Source of the DNA: a virus | Lineage: Duplodnaviria; Caudoviricetes | Strand: one strand, 5' to 3' | Length of the DNA stretch: 64,000 nucleotides | IMG/VR virus record: IMGVR_UViG_3300013121_000022 | Coordinates: 96,001 to 160,000 of that record | Shown: positions 28,748-60,139 of the stretch, one piece after another | Numbering within the stretch: the first letter of the stretch is position 1 | Layout of the letters: every line of letters starts with the position of its first letter | Notes under the pieces: model-generated | The model's database searches: none | Told to the model about the DNA's origin: nothing | The model's input: the letters and a program-made list of their open reading frames with translations, nothing else | Program-made: the position numbers and the translations under genes

Positions 28748-29196
28748 TGTTCATGAATGAAACTGGTATTTCCATAGGATTTGATACGGTAATTCCACCA
28801 AACGATTTTTGCGTTTTTGTTGTACCCATATTTGATATCAAGTAGTCATTCGTTTTCACCGAGCAAACCGCCTGAACTTAGATGCTGTAGAGTTGCTAAC
28901 ACAGACCTGAGTGTTGTAGTTGAATCAATTAATTTCCGCTCACGTAACGAAAATTTTTTTGGAGCTGTTTTTGCTCTGTATGCTCTAACCGCAGGATCGT
29001 TATCCAAAATTATTACATTGGAAAAACCTCAAGTCTGCTTCTCTGTTCTATCACAATCTAATTCAGGTCGTTCAAATCACCGATTGGCGGTTGAGGCATT
29101 ATACTGCGACAAACCCATTGTGTTTGCATATGTAGATCGACATCGAAAGACATTCCTTGACTTAGTTGCTGAACTAGGGTAATATCAACGTGATCG

Positions 29197-29570
29197 GCGC
29201 AGATCAAGTTGTCGAGCTCGAAAGAGTTAGGAACTTCCCGACGATACAGGAGCAATCCTGAAAACCCTCCACATGAAAACAGCAAGTGTGGACAGTTCGA
29301 CTGAACTGATGTCAACGGCAACAGAGAACATTCCGCTCGAAAGAGTAACGGGTGAAAAGGACGGTGATACCCGTCCGGCATGTCAAGGTAACTTGCTTGC
29401 ATAGGCGACAGGACAGGGGATCGCAAGGTGGCGCAAGATAGGCTACGGTTTATCTTGTAGAACCGCAGTATAAACGGTACGACAGAATAACACTCAGTCG
29501 CACTAGGATATACCATCAACCCGATGAGAAAGATGACAACCTAAACAGAATCGGGGGTATGATCGGCGCA
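29197..29570 (+). ncRNA. rnpB: RNase P RNA (phage-encoded)
   Basis: AGGAACTTCCCGAC pairs with AAACAGAATCGGGGGTAT (P4, bulged U); GCAACAGAGAAC..CCGC; GGGTGAAAAGG; GCAAGG; P2 GTTGTC/GACAAC; GAAA-capped P3. Confidence 0.88.
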
Positions 29571-29649
29571 GATTGGTTCTTGACAAAAAAATATAACCGA
29601 TCCATAATAATCTCAACTTCCACTATCTCACAGAAAGAGGATACCGAAC

Positions 29650-31757: not shown

Positions 31758-32651
31758 ATGGGATACGCACACATCGAAAATCTTTACAAGCCACATGTAA
31801 AAGAACTTCTCTTTATGTTTCGGGAAGTCTATGCACTCGAAAAGATACATGGATGCTCCGCCGAAATTAAGTTTACCGCCGAGATTGGAACTGGCAAAGT
31901 TGATGTTAGTTTTGACGGTGGGCTATTGTCGCCAGAACAATTCTCAAACATTATCGACAAGTCTATTGTAGAAAAGTTCGTGGAACTGAACAAGCAATAC
32001 AACAACGAAAGCATGTCTGTGTTTGGTGAGCTCTACGGTGGATCGATCAACCATATGAGCAAGGTGTATGGAGAGGAAAAACGCTTTGTTGTTTTTGATG
32101 TCAAGGTTGGCGATGTTTTCTTGTCTGTGCCACAGGCCGAAGACACAGCGAATCGACTTGGACTGGAATTCGTATCTTACAAGCGCATTCCGGTAACGAT
32201 TGAAGCCATTGATGCTGAACGGGACGCCGAATCGGTTCAGGCTATCCGCGTCGGAATGGGTTCTGGCAAATATCGCGAAGGTGTGGTTTTGCGTCCGTTG
32301 TTTGAAGCACGACTGAATAACGGCGAGCGAATTGTAGCCAAACACAAGCGTCCAGAACATTCTGAAACAAAGACTCCGCGAACTCTGAATGAGGATGAAC
32401 TGAAAGTCCTGTCCGATGCCAATGAAGTTGCAGAGGAATGGGTTACGGAAACCAGACTCCAGCATGTCTTGGACAAGATTACCGGAACACGAGATATGAA
32501 GTTGATGGGAACGGTAATAAAGGCCATGACTGAGGATGTGTACCGAGAGGCGCATGGCGAAATCGTGGAATCCAAAGCTATTCAAGGCGCAATCAGCAAG
32601 AAAACGGTTGCGCTTTACAAGAACTACCTTGAAACCGACAGCGTTCAATAA
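31758..32651 (+). CDS. RNA ligase, Rnl2-like
   Basis: motif I EKIHG, FGELYG, FVVFDV, EGVVLRP, AKHK. Confidence 0.85.
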   Translation: MGYAHIENLYKPHVKELLFMFREVYALEKIHGCSAEIKFTAEIGTGKVDVSFDGGLLSPEQFSNIIDKSIVEKFVELNKQYNNESMSVFGELYGGSINHMSKVYGEEKRFVVFDVKVGDVFLSVPQAEDTANRLGLEFVSYKRIPVTIEAIDAERDAESVQAIRVGMGSGKYREGVVLRPLFEARLNNGERIVAKHKRPEHSETKTPRTLNEDELKVLSDANEVAEEWVTETRLQHVLDKITGTRDMKLMGTVIKAMTEDVYREAHGEIVESKAIQGAISKKTVALYKNYLETDSVQ

Positions 32652-32888
32652 CAAAATTGAAGCACTGCTAGTCGATTTACATCGATGGGGAGTGCTTCAA
32701 TGTATTATCCGACAAGATCAAATGTTTTGCACTCCACCTGTAGCCGGACGTCCATCAATTGTTGATATGTTTGAAGTTGAATGGAGCGTTCATTCAGTCA
32801 AAGACGTTCCAGAGATCGTCTTGTACGTGACGGACACTACAGCCTACACGCGATTGCACAAATGGAATCAGAAAGAAAGCTTACTGAC

Positions 32889-33614
32889 ATGGACAATCTA
32901 AAAGAGATTGGGCAAACATGGATTGTTGAATTTCCAAGAACAAAACATCTTCCATTTCGCCCTAACGCCACTCGTGATGACCTAATTGCTACCCAAGTTC
33001 AGGCAAGCATTATTTTTGATCCGGCAGTTGTCGTATCAACAACTGAAAAAGTAGACGGGGCACAATTGGGAGTTGGAATTGTTGATGGTAATCTTTGTAT
33101 CCGCAACCGAAATCACGTGCTCAATAAAGGTTATCTCAGTCGCGGGGCGGCAGGCCGACAATTTGCGCCAACATGGACGTATTTTTACAAGCGAATTGAA
33201 GCACTAAAGGCAATGGAAAAGTTCGCAGGTGAGCCTTTGGTAATTTACGGAGAGTGGTTGTATGCGGTTCATTCAATTGTTTATGACACTTTAACTGTTC
33301 CGTTTTTGAGTTATGATATTTATTTGCCGGAACAAAAGATATTTATTAAAGGTGCTCTGGCTAGATCGCTACTAGAAAACTTTGGATGGTCAGTTGTTGA
33401 ACAACTTGAAAACAAGGGATCGTATGAAGAATTGTCGAAGTTGTGTCACCAAAAATCGGCCTATGGATCGACTAAGCGAGAGGGTGTTTATCTGTCGGTC
33501 TGCGCCGATAAAAAATCAGTCACACATCGATTCAAAATGGTACGTTCAGATTTCATTACTGGTGAACACTGGTCTAAGCGATCTATTATCAAGCAACCTA
33601 TGGTGAGGTTTTAA
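32889..33614 (+). CDS. RNA ligase-family nucleotidyltransferase
   Basis: FPRTKHL, EKVDG, YGEWL..HSI.Y, EGVY, KMVR. Confidence 0.85.
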   Translation: MDNLKEIGQTWIVEFPRTKHLPFRPNATRDDLIATQVQASIIFDPAVVVSTTEKVDGAQLGVGIVDGNLCIRNRNHVLNKGYLSRGAAGRQFAPTWTYFYKRIEALKAMEKFAGEPLVIYGEWLYAVHSIVYDTLTVPFLSYDIYLPEQKIFIKGALARSLLENFGWSVVEQLENKGSYEELSKLCHQKSAYGSTKREGVYLSVCADKKSVTHRFKMVRSDFITGEHWSKRSIIKQPMVRF

Positions 33615-34492: not shown

Positions 34493-34684
34493 ATGTCAAA
34501 ACTCAATTTGGGCGACACGGTGTATGTAAAGGGTTTTCGGAATCAAGGGACAACGACCATTGCTCGGTTTATGATCAATAAAAAGGGCGGAGTTGTATTG
34601 AACAATCCGATTAACGGTTTGTGGTGCTGGAATGTGAAGGATTTGGTTAAGATCAAATTACCAAAGGTGTTTAATGGAAATTAG
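34493..34684 (+). CDS. hypothetical protein
   Basis: AAGGA RBS. Confidence 0.55.
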   Translation: MSKLNLGDTVYVKGFRNQGTTTIARFMINKKGGVVLNNPINGLWCWNVKDLVKIKLPKVFNGN

Positions 34685-34859
34685 CGTGGGATTGAAAGTC
34701 ACATGGAATGACAACGGATTAACCCGATGGGATTATTTTGAACTTGTCATTCGCAACGGGCAGGAATTAGTTTTGTCGGGTTTTGGAAAAACCGTTCACA
34801 TCAAGGTTGAGGACTTGAAATATATCGAACCATTTGGAAAGTTACCAGAAAACGGTTGA
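34674..34859 (+). CDS. hypothetical protein
   Basis: AAGGTG RBS, overlap. Confidence 0.5.
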   Translation: MEISVGLKVTWNDNGLTRWDYFELVIRNGQELVLSGFGKTVHIKVEDLKYIEPFGKLPENG

Positions 34860-35073
34860 TGCCATTTGTATACTCTGTGATGTAGAAATCCAGCATACCG
34901 CGTTCGCGGAGGCATAAGAATGGGTGCAACCTGTGGTCTTGTCTGAGTAGGCAAAGGTCATGAACTTTGTTTGAATGGCATCATCCGTTTTCTGATAAAT
35001 TCGGTGGTACGATAACGCAAGTAATCTTGAAATTGATCCTTGACAGGATAGCAAAAGCGACTATAATTTTTTT

Positions 35074-36078
35074 CTGTTGGCCTGAACTTTACAAAAATTA
35101 CTGAGGGCGCTAATGGAGTTCAACTCTCCATCAGTAACATATCCAAATTGGAGTGGGGTAGTGCATACCCAAATCAAGGGAGGAAGCAAGCGAAAGCAAG
35201 CTGAAACCTGAGATTGAAACTCTAAGGCGGAGGGAACATCTAGTTCCCTTAGATAAAACCCGTAAGGGTAATAAAGGCGGATACCAATGGTCTGCCGGAT
35301 GCAAATCTCAACTAGACGAACTATCTTCGCTTGTGTTGGTGTAGGTGGTCGGCAAGAAATTGCAGGCTACTGAACAGCTAAGCCCACTGAAAAGGTGGTG
35401 AGTCCGAAAGACAAAACAATAAGATAGAGGGTAACAAGTTCGTTCGCAAGACGGGCGCTTACAAGACAATCGGCATCACTCCTAGCGGAACTTGCCAGAA
35501 AGTTAAGCGGTTACTGACAGCAAATCAGTGGCGGCAAAATGTGTGGTGTGGTAAAGGGATGCGTAAAAGTGTCTACAACCCGACAGGATACATCACGCAC
35601 AATTGGAAAAACTCTGCCTGAAGCTCAGGCTTGGCCTCTTAAGCAAATGCAATCGCAAAAATAAAGTCCTGTAGGTGTACGAGATTTACAGATACCCCTT
35701 CATTACCGTAACCAATCGGTGAATCAAGGCCACGAGCTTTGATATGTGCAACGAGTGAAGGATGTTCGGCGGCTTGCAACCGTTGGGCATCAGGCGCGGC
35801 GAGTGCATAGAAGATTTCGTAAACCTGAGTGGGTTGGGCTAAACCCACAAAAAGAAACTAAGCGACATCGTAAGCACAACGATACGCAAGGATAGCGGGG
35901 TAAAGTGTAGGATGATTGGGGTAACTCGATCTTGGAACAGAGCGGACACTGTGACGAACAGAACTGCTTGACTCTACACTAAAAAACGGAATGTGGCCTG
36001 AACCGTTTCTTGAAACGACTACCCTCTGGACTATATAGTCGAATGGACATATAATTCAGAGAGTGGTCATTTTTGTTT
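35074..36078 (+). ncRNA. large (~1 kb) structured ncRNA, possibly GOLLD-like
   Basis: no ORF of 60 aa or more on +; promoter TTGACA(35040)/TATAAT(35062); about 20 helices with GNRA loops; terminator-like hairpin at 36017-36078. Confidence 0.8.
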
Positions 36079-36101
36079 AACCGAAAGATGGAAAATTTTA
36101 C

Positions 36102-36698
36102 ATGAAGATGAATGCTGTTATGGTCGGAGATGTACACGGCAAGTGGGATCAATTCAAGTCGATTGCTGAAAAGGCAACGATGCCTGTGTTTCAGGTCGGT
36201 GACTTTGGATTTGGACTACGGAATCGTAAGCCCAACATCAAAGGCGATTGGCGTTTCATTCGCGGCAATCATGACGATCCAAGTTTAGCTAAAAAGGACA
36301 GTCATTATGCTGGCGACTTTGGCGTTTGGAACGGAGTGTTCTTTGTTTCGGGCGCAGCTTCAATTGATGTTGGTCAGCGTACTACTGGTGTTGACTGGTG
36401 GCCGGATGAACAATTGAATTACACGCAAATGCAAGAGGCATACAATCTGTATGTAAGATTTAAGCCAAAAATTGTTATCACTCATGATTGTCCAGATCAT
36501 TTCAAGTCGCATTTTATGACCTATGTCATCAAGCGATCCTCGACCGGAGTTTTATTGAATGCACTATATGAATTTCATGAGCCAGAGTTGTGGGTTTTTG
36601 GTCATCACCACAAAAGTCAGCAAACTCGATTCGGAAAAACAATGTTTGTTGGCCTTAGAGAACTTGAAACCCAAGAAATTGAATGGACGATTCCATAA
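36102..36698 (+). CDS. metallophosphoesterase
   Basis: GDVHG, VGDFG, RGNHD, THDCP, FGHHH. Confidence 0.92.
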   Translation: MKMNAVMVGDVHGKWDQFKSIAEKATMPVFQVGDFGFGLRNRKPNIKGDWRFIRGNHDDPSLAKKDSHYAGDFGVWNGVFFVSGAASIDVGQRTTGVDWWPDEQLNYTQMQEAYNLYVRFKPKIVITHDCPDHFKSHFMTYVIKRSSTGVLLNALYEFHEPELWVFGHHHKSQQTRFGKTMFVGLRELETQEIEWTIP

Positions 36699-38784: not shown

Positions 38785-38857
38785 GGGCAATTAGCGTAGT
38801 TGGGAACGCATCTCAATGGCATTGAGAAGATCATGGGTTCGAGTCCCATATTGTCCA
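38785..38857 (+). tRNA. tRNA-Ala(GGC)
   Basis: G3:U70; TCTCA-ATGGCAT-TGAGA. Confidence 0.92.
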
Positions 38858-38877
38858 CAGGAAAGAAATAATAACAC

Positions 38878-42399: not shown

Positions 42400-42475
42400 G
42401 GAGTTGTCAGCATAACAGGCCATGCGTCCCGACTTCGCCTAAAGAAGATATGAGTTCGAGTCTCATACAGCTCCC
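42400..42475 (+). tRNA. tRNA-like gene with aberrant anticodon arm
   Basis: acceptor GGAGTTG/CAGCTCC and T-arm ATGAG-TTCGAGT-CTCAT intact; no canonical anticodon stem. Confidence 0.65.
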
Positions 42476-42480
42476 AAATA

Positions 42481-42785
42481 ACCTGAACAACACAAAGCCG
42501 ACTTAGTTCATTGGATTGGACTGAGAGGGAGATTATAAAAGAGTGTTGTTGATTTACAAACAGGGAAGTCCAATTTAATCTGACTTGGACATTACTGGAT
42601 ATGAGAATGTTGTAAAGTAATAGATTGCGGTATCTGTTTACATAGGTCAGGAACTTCCCATTCAAGCCCTGCTGGTCGGCATTGCGCCGATTAGTGGAGC
42701 ATGGTACTCAGCGGGTGCGGGAACACCCTTAAGATAGAGTATCAGCAACGCCACAAACGTTGATAAAACCGTCTGACCGTATTTG
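42481..42785 (+). ncRNA. candidate structured ncRNA (~300 nt)
   Basis: AACAACAC/GTGTTGTT, AAACAG/CTGTTT, GGGAAGT/ACTTCCC and GGTCAG/CTGACC pairings. Confidence 0.55.
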
Positions 42786-42828
42786 TTACTTGACAACATT
42801 CTCGTATCCAGTATAATCAGAAACACAT

Positions 42829-47626: not shown

Positions 47627-47632
47627 CACGTT

Positions 47633-47825
47633 GTTGTTAGCATTGAGAGTGTAGCACATTTTTGATTGACGCCGACTTGTTGCGTCGGACGTGCTATCAC
47701 ACGACAATCAAAAGTCCCTCACAAGGGATAAGTTGTCAGGCAACCATTGATAGATGTGACAATGAAAGGGCTACCGGAACTTATCCGGTTTCGATCTTGA
47801 TCGAAACCCTCTCAATGCTAACAAC
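47633..47825 (+). ncRNA. candidate pseudoknotted ncRNA closed by a 17-bp stem
   Basis: GTTGTTAGCATTGAGAG/CTCTCAATGCTAACAAC. Confidence 0.6.
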
Positions 47826-47959
47826 TAATTTACAAGTAGTAGCATATAACATACGATAGCATAAGGCTGACTACTTTGAGGCTGAAGCTTGGTTGCAAAC
47901 AATTAGTAAGCCGGAACAGCTCTGACTACGCGAAGTTGTATGCTGTTGCTTGTAAATTA
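47826..47959 (+). ncRNA. candidate ncRNA closed by a 25-bp stem containing G-U pairs
   Basis: 47826-47850 pairs with 47935-47959. Confidence 0.6.
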
Positions 47960-47963
47960 ATCT

Positions 47964-60037: not shown

Positions 60038-60134
60038 GGATAGGCGGCAATGGTTGGCGCAAGCAGACCGCTTGGAAAGCGGTTAGTCGTGATAGTGATA
60101 TTGCGGCTTATGGGTTCGATCCCCATCCTATCCT
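60038..60134 (+). tRNA. tRNA-Ser(GGA)
   Basis: ACCGC-TTGGAAA-GCGGT, long variable arm, atypical D-arm. Confidence 0.8.
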
Positions 60135-60139
60135 CAATA

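What the first reader, a model, noticed from the sequence alone, without database searches (positions are those of the whole stretch)
35098..35137. tRNA minihelix (acceptor + T-arm only) at the 5' end of the giant RNA
Seen: TTACTGA-(GGGCGCTAA)-TGGAG-TTCAACT-CTCCA-TCAGTAA. This is a perfect 7-bp acceptor-like stem and a 5-bp T-stem with a TTCRANT loop, with the D and anticodon arms replaced by 9 nt. Known: this top-half shape is the minimal RNase P/RNase Z substrate. Inference: a dedicated processing tag that sets the mature 5' end of the giant RNA, linking it to the phage RNase P.
Basis: partly seen in the sequence, partly recalled or inferred. Interest (0 to 1): 0.78.

Follow-up and report, generated by a model that had tools for sequence, protein, structure and literature searches.

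The report
tRNA top-half mimic before giant RNA
A 40-base copy of only the top half of a tRNA sits between a perfect promoter and an about 0.8-kb folded RNA in an uncultured, tRNA-rich phage, and most likely tells tRNA-trimming enzymes where to cut that RNA free.

Summary
Positions 35098-35137 form a perfect 7-bp stem, a 9-nt linker, and a 5-bp stem with loop TTCAACT that abuts the 3' strand. It is the only such element in the 172.5-kb phage genome; shuffles predict about 0.08 per genome.

It lies about 24 nt behind a 12/12 sigma-70 promoter and about 10 nt before the first helix of an ORF-free structured RNA. Metatranscriptome contigs from soil, wetland and sediment, 85-97% identical to that RNA, all stop at 35151-35162. 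None carries a 5' extension, so the mature RNA appears to begin just after the minihelix.

One register in, its flanks (AU|...|ACA) match a flank pattern shared by most of the phage's 46 tRNA genes. The phage also has a divergent RNase P RNA, a tmRNA and a CCA-adding enzyme gene.

The processing-tag reading is therefore plausible, but it is not proven. No DNA homologue of the locus was found in any collection, so conservation could not be tested, and no cleavage data exist for this phage. The acceptor stem is AU-rich and only marginally stable.

Earlier unchecked notes of this scan report similar anticodon-less tRNA mimics in other phages. Verdict: a real tRNA-derived element, a new variant of the t-element/mascRNA kind, of moderate interest.

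The parts
35040..35067 (+). Sigma-70-type promoter TTGACA-16-TATAAT; transcription start inferred at about 35074-35076
   Evidence: 12 of 12 matches. It is one of about ten perfect promoters in the genome, several of them in front of RNA genes.
35074..35097 (+). 5' leader of about 24 nt, A-rich at its end, containing a weak boxA-like CTTTACAAAAA
   Evidence: The 8-mer CTTTACAA occurs 12 times in the genome, so the boxA resemblance is weak.
35098..35137 (+). tRNA top-half minihelix: acceptor 5' strand 35098-35104, 9-nt linker 35105-35113, T-stem 35114-35118/35126-35130, T-loop 35119-35125, acceptor 3' strand 35131-35137
35138..35147 (+). Short AU-rich spacer CAUAUCCAAA. Together with A35137 it reads A73-C74-A75 as in the phage's tRNA genes. 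It holds an AA|AUU RNase E-like site (inference)
   Evidence: (flank pattern).
35148..35958 (+). Core of the large structured RNA; first helix 35148-35154/35219-35225
   Evidence: Fold z -5.6. Metatranscriptome contigs of relatives cover 35151-35958. Three double compensatory and 11 wobble-conserving changes in relative X5. No Rfam family at E<=10.
35959..36078 (+). 3' trailer with hairpins and a long stem followed by a T-run, probably the terminator
   Evidence: Read. The simple scan did not call it. No RNA contig covers it.
29196..29574 (+). Divergent class A RNase P RNA-like gene with its own promoter: the candidate phage enzyme for the 5' cut
   Evidence: RF00010, 58.9 bits, E 3.2e-17, model positions 1-367 of 367, below the gathering score of 100.

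Best explanation
The element is a tRNA-derived top half, with acceptor stem and T arm but no D or anticodon arm. It is kept in the leader of the primary transcript of an about 0.8-kb structured RNA as a cis-acting handle for the tRNA end-processing machinery.

Proposed mechanism:
1. Transcription starts at about 35074 from the consensus promoter.
2. RNase P (host enzyme, or the phage RNase P RNA with the host protein) cuts at the 5' edge of the 12-bp stack. The site is 35097/98 by the helix-length rule, or 35098/99 by the phage's AU|N flank pattern.
3. A 3' tRNA-processing nuclease (RNase Z, or RNase E in the AU-rich spacer) cuts between 35137 and about 35147.
4. This releases a roughly 40-nt minihelix and leaves the large RNA with a defined monophosphate 5' end at the foot of its first helix.

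Shown: the geometry, its uniqueness, its position, the tRNA-type flanks, and the 5' limit of RNA contigs of relatives. Inferred: every cleavage step and the enzymes involved.
For: - Exact tRNA top-half geometry with all T-arm identity bases.
- Unique in the genome, with 0.08 expected by chance. The roughly 70-nt leader is a tiny fraction of the 345 kb searched.
- It lies between a 12/12 promoter and the first helix of the RNA.
- RNA contigs from three independent studies stop at 35151, 35154 and 35162 with no unaligned 5' extension. One ends in an Illumina adapter. An exact-match contig starts at 35145.
- The phage's 46 tRNA genes share a flank pattern: A at -2 in 30, U at -1 in 38, A73 in 29, C74 in 45 and A75 in 30. 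The tmRNA gene carries U(-1), A73 and C74. The minihelix reads AU|UACUGA...UCAGUA|ACA one register in.
- The same layout recurs in this genome. A tRNA-like element at 42400-42475 is followed by a structured RNA (z -7.7). tRNA-Asp is followed by a structured spacer (z -7.6) and then tRNA-Arg.
- The phage has an RNase P RNA-like gene and a CCA-adding enzyme family gene.
- Established knowledge: top-half minihelices are substrates of RNase P, RNase Z and CCA-adding enzymes. RNase P also cuts tRNA-like non-tRNA substrates such as tmRNA, OLE RNA, phage P1/P7 C4 RNA, MALAT1 and plant t-elements (PMC4919922).
Against: - No homologous DNA locus was found, so neither conservation nor covariation of the minihelix is known.
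- The RNA contigs come from relatives, not from this phage, and contigs cannot define true ends.
- The acceptor stem has only 2 G-C pairs. It is absent from the MFE of longer contexts, with pair probability as low as 0.05.
- In the 7-bp register the flanks are atypical for this phage's tRNAs: A at -1 (4 of 46), C73 (1 of 46) and A74 (0 of 46). In the flank-matching register the stack is 11 bp.
- No CCA is encoded.
- No tRNA-like element marks the 3' end of the RNA.
Confidence: 0.45

Rival explanations
1. It is an inert relic. A tRNA gene once sat between this promoter and the large RNA. GOLLD RNAs often follow a tRNA, and promoters sit directly in front of tRNAs elsewhere in this phage. That gene lost its D and anticodon arms by an internal deletion, and what remains has no function of its own.
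For: The flank pattern of the phage's own tRNA genes is retained. Promoter-then-tRNA is the usual layout here. GOLLD env-38 lies downstream of a Met-tRNA, and some GOLLDs carry linked tRNAs. No conservation data argue for selection.
Against: All 24 paired bases, the five T-loop identity bases, G53:C61 and the flanking bases are intact, which a decaying pseudogene would not keep for long. The deletion leaves exactly the continuous 12-bp stack, which is the functional unit. Even a relic of this shape would still be cut by RNase P, so 'inert' is hard to sustain.
Confidence: 0.22
2. It is a tRNA-like handle that stays covalently attached to the large RNA, like the tRNAs linked to some GOLLD RNAs. 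It would recruit tRNA-binding factors such as the CCA-adding enzyme, TruB/TrmA or EF-Tu, rather than being cut off.
For: The GOLLD precedent. The phage encodes many tRNA-handling functions.
Against: None of the four contigs laid on the region extends upstream of 35145, and none has a loose 5' end apart from an adapter. An internal minihelix cannot receive CCA without a 3' cut.
Confidence: 0.1
3. It is a generic leader hairpin, either a 5' stabiliser or a nut-like antitermination site (boxA-like CUUUACAAAAA followed by a hairpin) for a long untranslated transcript. Its tRNA likeness would be coincidental.
For: A boxA-like motif directly precedes the hairpin. The phage tmRNA leader carries a much better boxA, GTTCTTTAACAATTT. 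Long untranslated RNAs need protection from Rho.
Against: CTTTACAA occurs 12 times in the genome, so the motif is weak. A TTCRANN loop on a 5-bp stem with G53:C61, stacked without a spacer on a 7-bp stem, is expected 0.08 times per genome or less. The tRNA-type flanks add to this.
Confidence: 0.1

Closest known systems
Plant mitochondrial t-elements (the tRNA punctuation principle)
   Same: Acceptor-stem plus T-arm mimics that lack an anticodon arm. They are placed next to the end of another RNA and are cut by RNase P and RNase Z to define that end (PMC4919922).
   Different: Here the element is in a bacteriophage, behind a bacterial promoter, at the 5' side of a large non-coding RNA rather than an mRNA. 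Cleavage has not been shown.
MALAT1/MEN-beta tRNA-like elements (mascRNA, menRNA; Rfam RF01684)
   Same: A long non-coding RNA is co-transcribed with a tRNA-like element whose cleavage by RNase P and RNase Z sets an end of the long RNA and releases a small tRNA-like RNA.
   Different: mascRNA is a full cloverleaf at the 3' end of a eukaryotic RNA. This element is a 40-nt top half at the 5' side. RF01684 gave no match here.
Synthetic acceptor/T-arm minihelix substrates, and natural non-tRNA RNase P substrates of phages (P1/P7 C4 antisense RNA; phage T4 species 1 and 2 RNAs in the tRNA cluster)
   Same: A 12-bp coaxial stack with a T loop is the minimal unit recognised by RNase P. Phage regulatory and stable RNAs are matured this way (and my own knowledge for T4 rnaC/rnaD and the minihelix substrates).
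   Different: Those substrates usually carry 3' NCCA or belong to the functional RNA itself. This one lacks CCA and appears to be a removable tag.
GOLLD and ROOL RNAs of phage tRNA islands
   Same: The downstream RNA is a large, ornate, phage-encoded RNA near a tRNA array. Some GOLLDs have covalently linked tRNAs.
   Different: No Rfam family matched the region at E<=10, and ROOL searched directly had no match in it. The linked element is a top half, not a full tRNA.

Membership tests
tRNA (Rfam RF00005 / ARAGORN) | Cloverleaf with a D arm and an anticodon arm | tested here: not met
   Only 9 nt lie between the acceptor and T stems. ARAGORN did not call it and Rfam did not call it at E<=10.
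tRNA top-half minihelix (minimal RNase P / RNase Z / CCA-enzyme substrate) | 7-bp acceptor stem stacked without a spacer on a 5-bp T stem, giving a 12-bp stack that ends at an unpaired -1/73 | tested here: met
   12 Watson-Crick pairs, with A(-1) opposite C73 unpaired. Caveat: by the phage's flank pattern, the outermost U:A pair may correspond to -1:73.
tRNA top-half minihelix (minimal RNase P / RNase Z / CCA-enzyme substrate) | 7-nt T loop with T54 T55 C56 R57 A58 and a G53:C61 closing pair | tested here: met
   The loop is TTCAACT, closed by G35118:C35126. The same loop occurs in the phage's tRNA-Ala(cgc).
tRNA top-half minihelix (minimal RNase P / RNase Z / CCA-enzyme substrate) | 3' NCCA end | tested here: not met
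   The stem is followed by CATATCC. Almost none of the phage's tRNA genes encodes CCA either; they read N73-C74-A/T75.
tRNA top-half minihelix (minimal RNase P / RNase Z / CCA-enzyme substrate) | Actual cleavage by RNase P and RNase Z | not testable with these tools
   This needs an in vitro assay or end mapping.
t-element / mascRNA-type end-defining signal | The mature end of the neighbouring RNA coincides with the edge of the tRNA-like element | tested here: inconclusive
   RNA contigs of relatives end at 35151-35162 and an exact contig ends at 35145, which is 8-25 nt after the element. Contigs cannot fix true ends, and they are not from this phage.
t-element / mascRNA-type end-defining signal | Conservation of the element with the RNA in related loci | tested here: inconclusive
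   No related DNA locus was found in the phage records, IMG/VR, JGI metagenomes or GTDB genomes.
tmRNA tRNA-like domain | Acceptor strands at the two ends of the RNA, enclosing the mRNA-like domain, with a 3' ACCA end | tested here: not met
   The stem closes over 26 nt only. The phage's real tmRNA lies elsewhere, at genome 163325-163638.
GOLLD / ROOL (for the downstream RNA) | Match to the Rfam covariance model | tested here: not met
   No family matched at E<=10 in 34500-36300. ROOL gave no match in the region.

The most novel reading that the evidence does not exclude
Phages have evolved a dedicated 40-nt 'mini-tRNA' cassette that hands non-tRNA transcripts to the tRNA-processing machinery, here possibly the phage's own RNase P RNA. 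In this phage it would give an abundant, environmentally widespread and undescribed 0.8-kb RNA a precise monophosphate 5' end. The released minihelix would be a stable small RNA in its own right, a bacterial counterpart of mascRNA.
Probability: 0.3. Interest if true: 0.7.

Novelty: new variant of a known kind. Interest (0 to 1): 0.5.

Why it matters
If the minihelix is a working processing tag, tRNA punctuation would extend to the maturation of large phage non-coding RNAs. That principle is so far known from organelles and from MALAT1-type RNAs. It would also give a concrete handle on an undescribed, strongly conserved 0.8-kb RNA that turns up in soil, wetland and sediment metatranscriptomes: where it starts, which enzymes mature it, and how to express it correctly for structural work. 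Finally, it offers a natural substrate for testing whether the phage's divergent RNase P RNA is active.

Tried and rejected
- Known RNA families: Rfam at gathering threshold over the whole window and at E<=10 on 34500-36300 gave only chance hits (snoRNA, a CRISPR repeat, PreQ1 at 15 bits). ROOL did not match the region. One search used a wrong accession (a group II intron domain) and says nothing about GOLLD.
- DNA homologues by blastn against GenBank phages, for the RNA and for the minihelix: none beyond chance.
- DNA homologues by exact words: the 24-mer of the T arm plus acceptor; invariant-block words in IMG/VR, JGI metagenomes and GTDB genomes; and 17-18-mers whose 12 hits were chance.
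- Synteny: the neighbouring metallophosphatase has no close relative in IMG/VR, and its best relative among 5.8 billion proteins is 45% identical. A spurious minus-strand ORF across the RNA found only itself.
- Relatives cannot be drawn for a virus record. Look-alike stretches in the scan's index: none.
- Coding reading: rejected. There is no plus-strand ORF over 49 aa. Relative X5 has frame-breaking indels in one small ORF and a 100-nt stretch with no change at all in the other.
- Adapter evidence: the adapter-flanked contig end at 35154/5 is not a firm 5' end, because X5's changes at 35222/35223 preserve pairing with 35150/35151.
- Parts of the region without contig cover (leader, minihelix, 3' trailer) are not evidence of absence.
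- The 10-nt direct repeat TGGCCTGAAC flanking the unit was considered as a target-site duplication. It was set aside, because such a repeat is expected by chance about half the time within 1 kb and the promoter would lie outside the putative insert.
- Literature searches for a described phage RNA of this kind found none.

Full report
**Setting.** The window is bases 96001-160000 of a complete 172.5-kb IMG/VR virus record with direct terminal repeats. The phage is unusually rich in RNA genes. It has 46 tRNAs and a tmRNA. It has a full-length but divergent class A RNase P RNA-like gene at 29196-29574 (58.9 bits, E 3e-17, below the gathering score of 100). It also carries further tRNA-like elements that the standard tools miss, two RNA ligase genes at 31758-33614, a metallophosphatase gene at 36102-36698, and a CCA-adding enzyme family gene. 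It has no RnpA or RNase Z gene.

**The observation.**
- All 12 pairs are Watson-Crick.
- The T-stem 3' strand runs straight into the acceptor 3' strand.
- The loop has T54 T55 C56 R57 A58, and the closing pair is G53:C61.
- A(-1) and C73 cannot extend the helix.

A script that scans both strands of the whole genome for this architecture finds this element and no other. One hundred dinucleotide shuffles give 0.08 per genome, or zero when no G-U pair is allowed. With any loop sequence the bare topology is common, 13 observed against 6.8 expected. The T-loop signature is therefore what makes the element non-random. Its position inside a roughly 70-nt leader makes chance negligible.

Thermodynamics are weaker. 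The stem has 2 G-C pairs of 7. Local z is -2.06. The forced structure is 0.2-2.4 kcal/mol above the MFE, and acceptor pair probabilities range from 0.05 to 0.8 with context.

**Surroundings.** A 12/12 promoter, TTGACA-16-TATAAT, ends at 35067. Transcription should therefore start near 35074, which gives a 24-nt leader before the minihelix. The stretch 34860-36101 has no credible ORF. The core 35145-35965 folds with z -5.6, and its first helix is 35148-35154/35219-25. No Rfam family matches at E<=10, and ROOL does not match the region.

**RNA evidence.** One sequencing-run search found five metatranscriptomes (soil, wetland, sediment; three studies) and one activated-sludge run that hold parts of the stretch. 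Four of these runs were laid on 34700-36300.
- The contigs are 85-97% identical and cover 35151-35958.
- Two variable segments (35325-35422 and 35366-35436) are replaced by other sequence of similar length.
- Long blocks are invariant: 35506-35557 in all three RNA runs, and 35751-35850 in X5.
- The left ends lie at 35151, 35154 and 35162, and at 35145 for the exact-match contig.
- No contig runs on into unlike sequence. One ends in Illumina adapter.
- Nothing covers the leader, the minihelix or the flanking genes.

Measured against the predicted fold, relative X5 shows three double compensatory changes, 11 wobble-conserving changes and 7 breaks, the breaks mostly in long-range pairs. The large RNA is therefore real, structured, transcribed in nature and conserved. 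Its family has a 5' end at about 35140-35150, immediately after the minihelix. In this phage the promoter lies about 70 nt further upstream, so the leader and minihelix must be removed to reach that end. This is indirect evidence: the contigs come from relatives, and contigs cannot define true ends.

**tRNA-gene flank pattern.** The 46 tRNA genes share conserved flanks: A at -2 (30 of 46), T at -1 (38 of 46), A73 (29 of 46), C74 (45 of 46) and A75 (30 of 46). The tmRNA gene fits this pattern at -1, 73 and 74, and the aberrant tRNA-like elements at 42400 and 60040 fit it too. The minihelix reproduces it one register in: AT|TACTGA...TCAGTA|ACA. In that register its outermost U:A pair corresponds to the U(-1):A73 pair that most of this phage's pre-tRNAs can form. 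In the 7-bp register the flanks are atypical, with A at position 74 seen in 0 of 46 tRNA genes.

This argues that the element derives from one of the phage's own tRNA genes, or evolves under the same processing constraints. It also leaves the 5' cut ambiguous, between 35097/98 (12-bp ruler) and 35098/99 (flank pattern).

**Parallels within the genome.** Two inter-tRNA spacers are strongly structured. One, at 42476-42828 (z -7.7), is preceded by the tRNA-like element at 42400-42475. The other, at 47628-47963 (z -7.6), lies between tRNA-Asp and tRNA-Arg. Rfam knows neither. The order 'tRNA or tRNA-like element, then structured RNA' is thus a recurring layout here. The large RNA has no full tRNA beside it, and has the minihelix instead.

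**Mechanism.** Established knowledge supports the proposed route. The acceptor/T-arm stack is the minimal substrate of RNase P, RNase Z and CCA-adding enzymes. RNase P also matures tRNA-like non-tRNA substrates such as tmRNA, OLE RNA, P1/P7 C4 RNA, MALAT1/mascRNA and plant t-elements.

The best reading (0.45) is a removable processing tag. RNase P cuts at the 5' edge. RNase Z, or RNase E at the AA|AUU site in the spacer, cuts 3' of it. The large RNA is left with a monophosphate 5' end at the foot of its first helix.

The rivals are:
- an inert tRNA relic (0.22);
- a retained tRNA-like handle, as in GOLLDs with linked tRNAs (0.10);
- a generic leader hairpin or nut-like site with a coincidental T loop (0.10).

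The link to the phage's own RNase P RNA is possible but untested.

**What could not be done.** No DNA relative of the RNA, the minihelix or the neighbouring gene was found in GenBank phages, IMG/VR, JGI metagenomes, GTDB genomes or the 5.8-billion-protein collection.

**Comparison and novelty.** The closest known systems are plant mitochondrial t-elements and the MALAT1/mascRNA module. It is not a tRNA, a tmRNA domain or an RF01684 member. Earlier notes of this scan (AI notes, not independent evidence) report similar anticodon-less tRNA top halves in other phage genomes, so the kind seems to recur. The new point here is the pairing with a giant conserved RNA, in a phage that also carries an RNase P RNA. 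I rate it a new variant of a known kind, with interest 0.5.

Noticed in passing
window 35148-35958: Relatives of the large RNA, 85-97% identical, occur in soil, wetland and sediment metatranscriptomes. No DNA or protein relative of the phage closer than 45% was found, so the RNA is far better conserved, or more mobile, than its carrier. Block 35751-35850 has no change against relative X5, and 35506-35557 has none in any of the three RNA runs.
   Followed up: partly
whole genome (46 tRNA genes; e.g. window 38785-38858): The tRNA genes share a strict flank pattern: A(-2) U(-1) | tRNA | N73 C74 A/U75, with C74 in 45 of 46. Full CCA is almost never encoded. U(-1) can pair with A73 in most precursors.
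   Followed up: yes
genome 163325-163638 (about 3.3 kb beyond the window end): Phage tmRNA gene (ARAGORN; tag ends ...GAVIAA) behind a perfect promoter. Its leader holds a near-consensus boxA, GTTCTTTAACAATTT, placed directly before the acceptor stem.
   Followed up: partly
window 29196-29574: Full-length but divergent class A RNase P RNA-like gene (58.9 bits, E 3e-17, gathering score 100) with its own promoter. No RnpA gene is in the phage.
   Followed up: partly
window 42400-42475: tRNA-like element missed by ARAGORN at default settings and by Rfam. It has an at|G|GAGTTGT...ACAGCTC|C|ca frame like tRNA-His (G-1:C73), a good T arm, a degenerate core and a possible GCCUAAA loop (CUA?). It is followed by a 350-nt spacer, 42476-42828, that is strongly structured (z -7.7).
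   Followed up: partly
window 60040-60135: Another aberrant tRNA-like RNA: acceptor GGATAGG/CCTATCC, T arm ATGGG-TTCGATC-CCCAT, and extra arms. ARAGORN calls it Ser(gga) only at a lowered threshold.
   Followed up: partly
window 47628-47963: The 336-nt spacer between tRNA-Asp and tRNA-Arg folds with z -7.6 and matches no Rfam family.
   Followed up: partly
window 34846-34995: A 150-nt element closed by a 21-bp stem (z -4.7), lying between the stop of a 61-aa ORF and the promoter of the large RNA.
   Followed up: partly
window 35079-35088 and 35995-36004: The 10-nt direct repeat TGGCCTGAAC brackets the minihelix plus the large RNA. It could be chance.
   Followed up: no
window 35823-35867: Weak PreQ1-I aptamer-like match (15.3 bits, E 6.5): a hairpin plus CCCACAAAAAGAAACUAAG tail, lying partly inside the block that shows no change against relative X5.
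   Followed up: no
window 31758-33614 and 36102-36698; genome 22505-22834: Two RNA ligase family genes lie upstream of the RNA and a calcineurin-like metallophosphatase gene lies directly downstream. A CCA-adding enzyme family gene lies elsewhere in the genome. Together these look like an RNA repair and maturation toolkit.
   Followed up: partly
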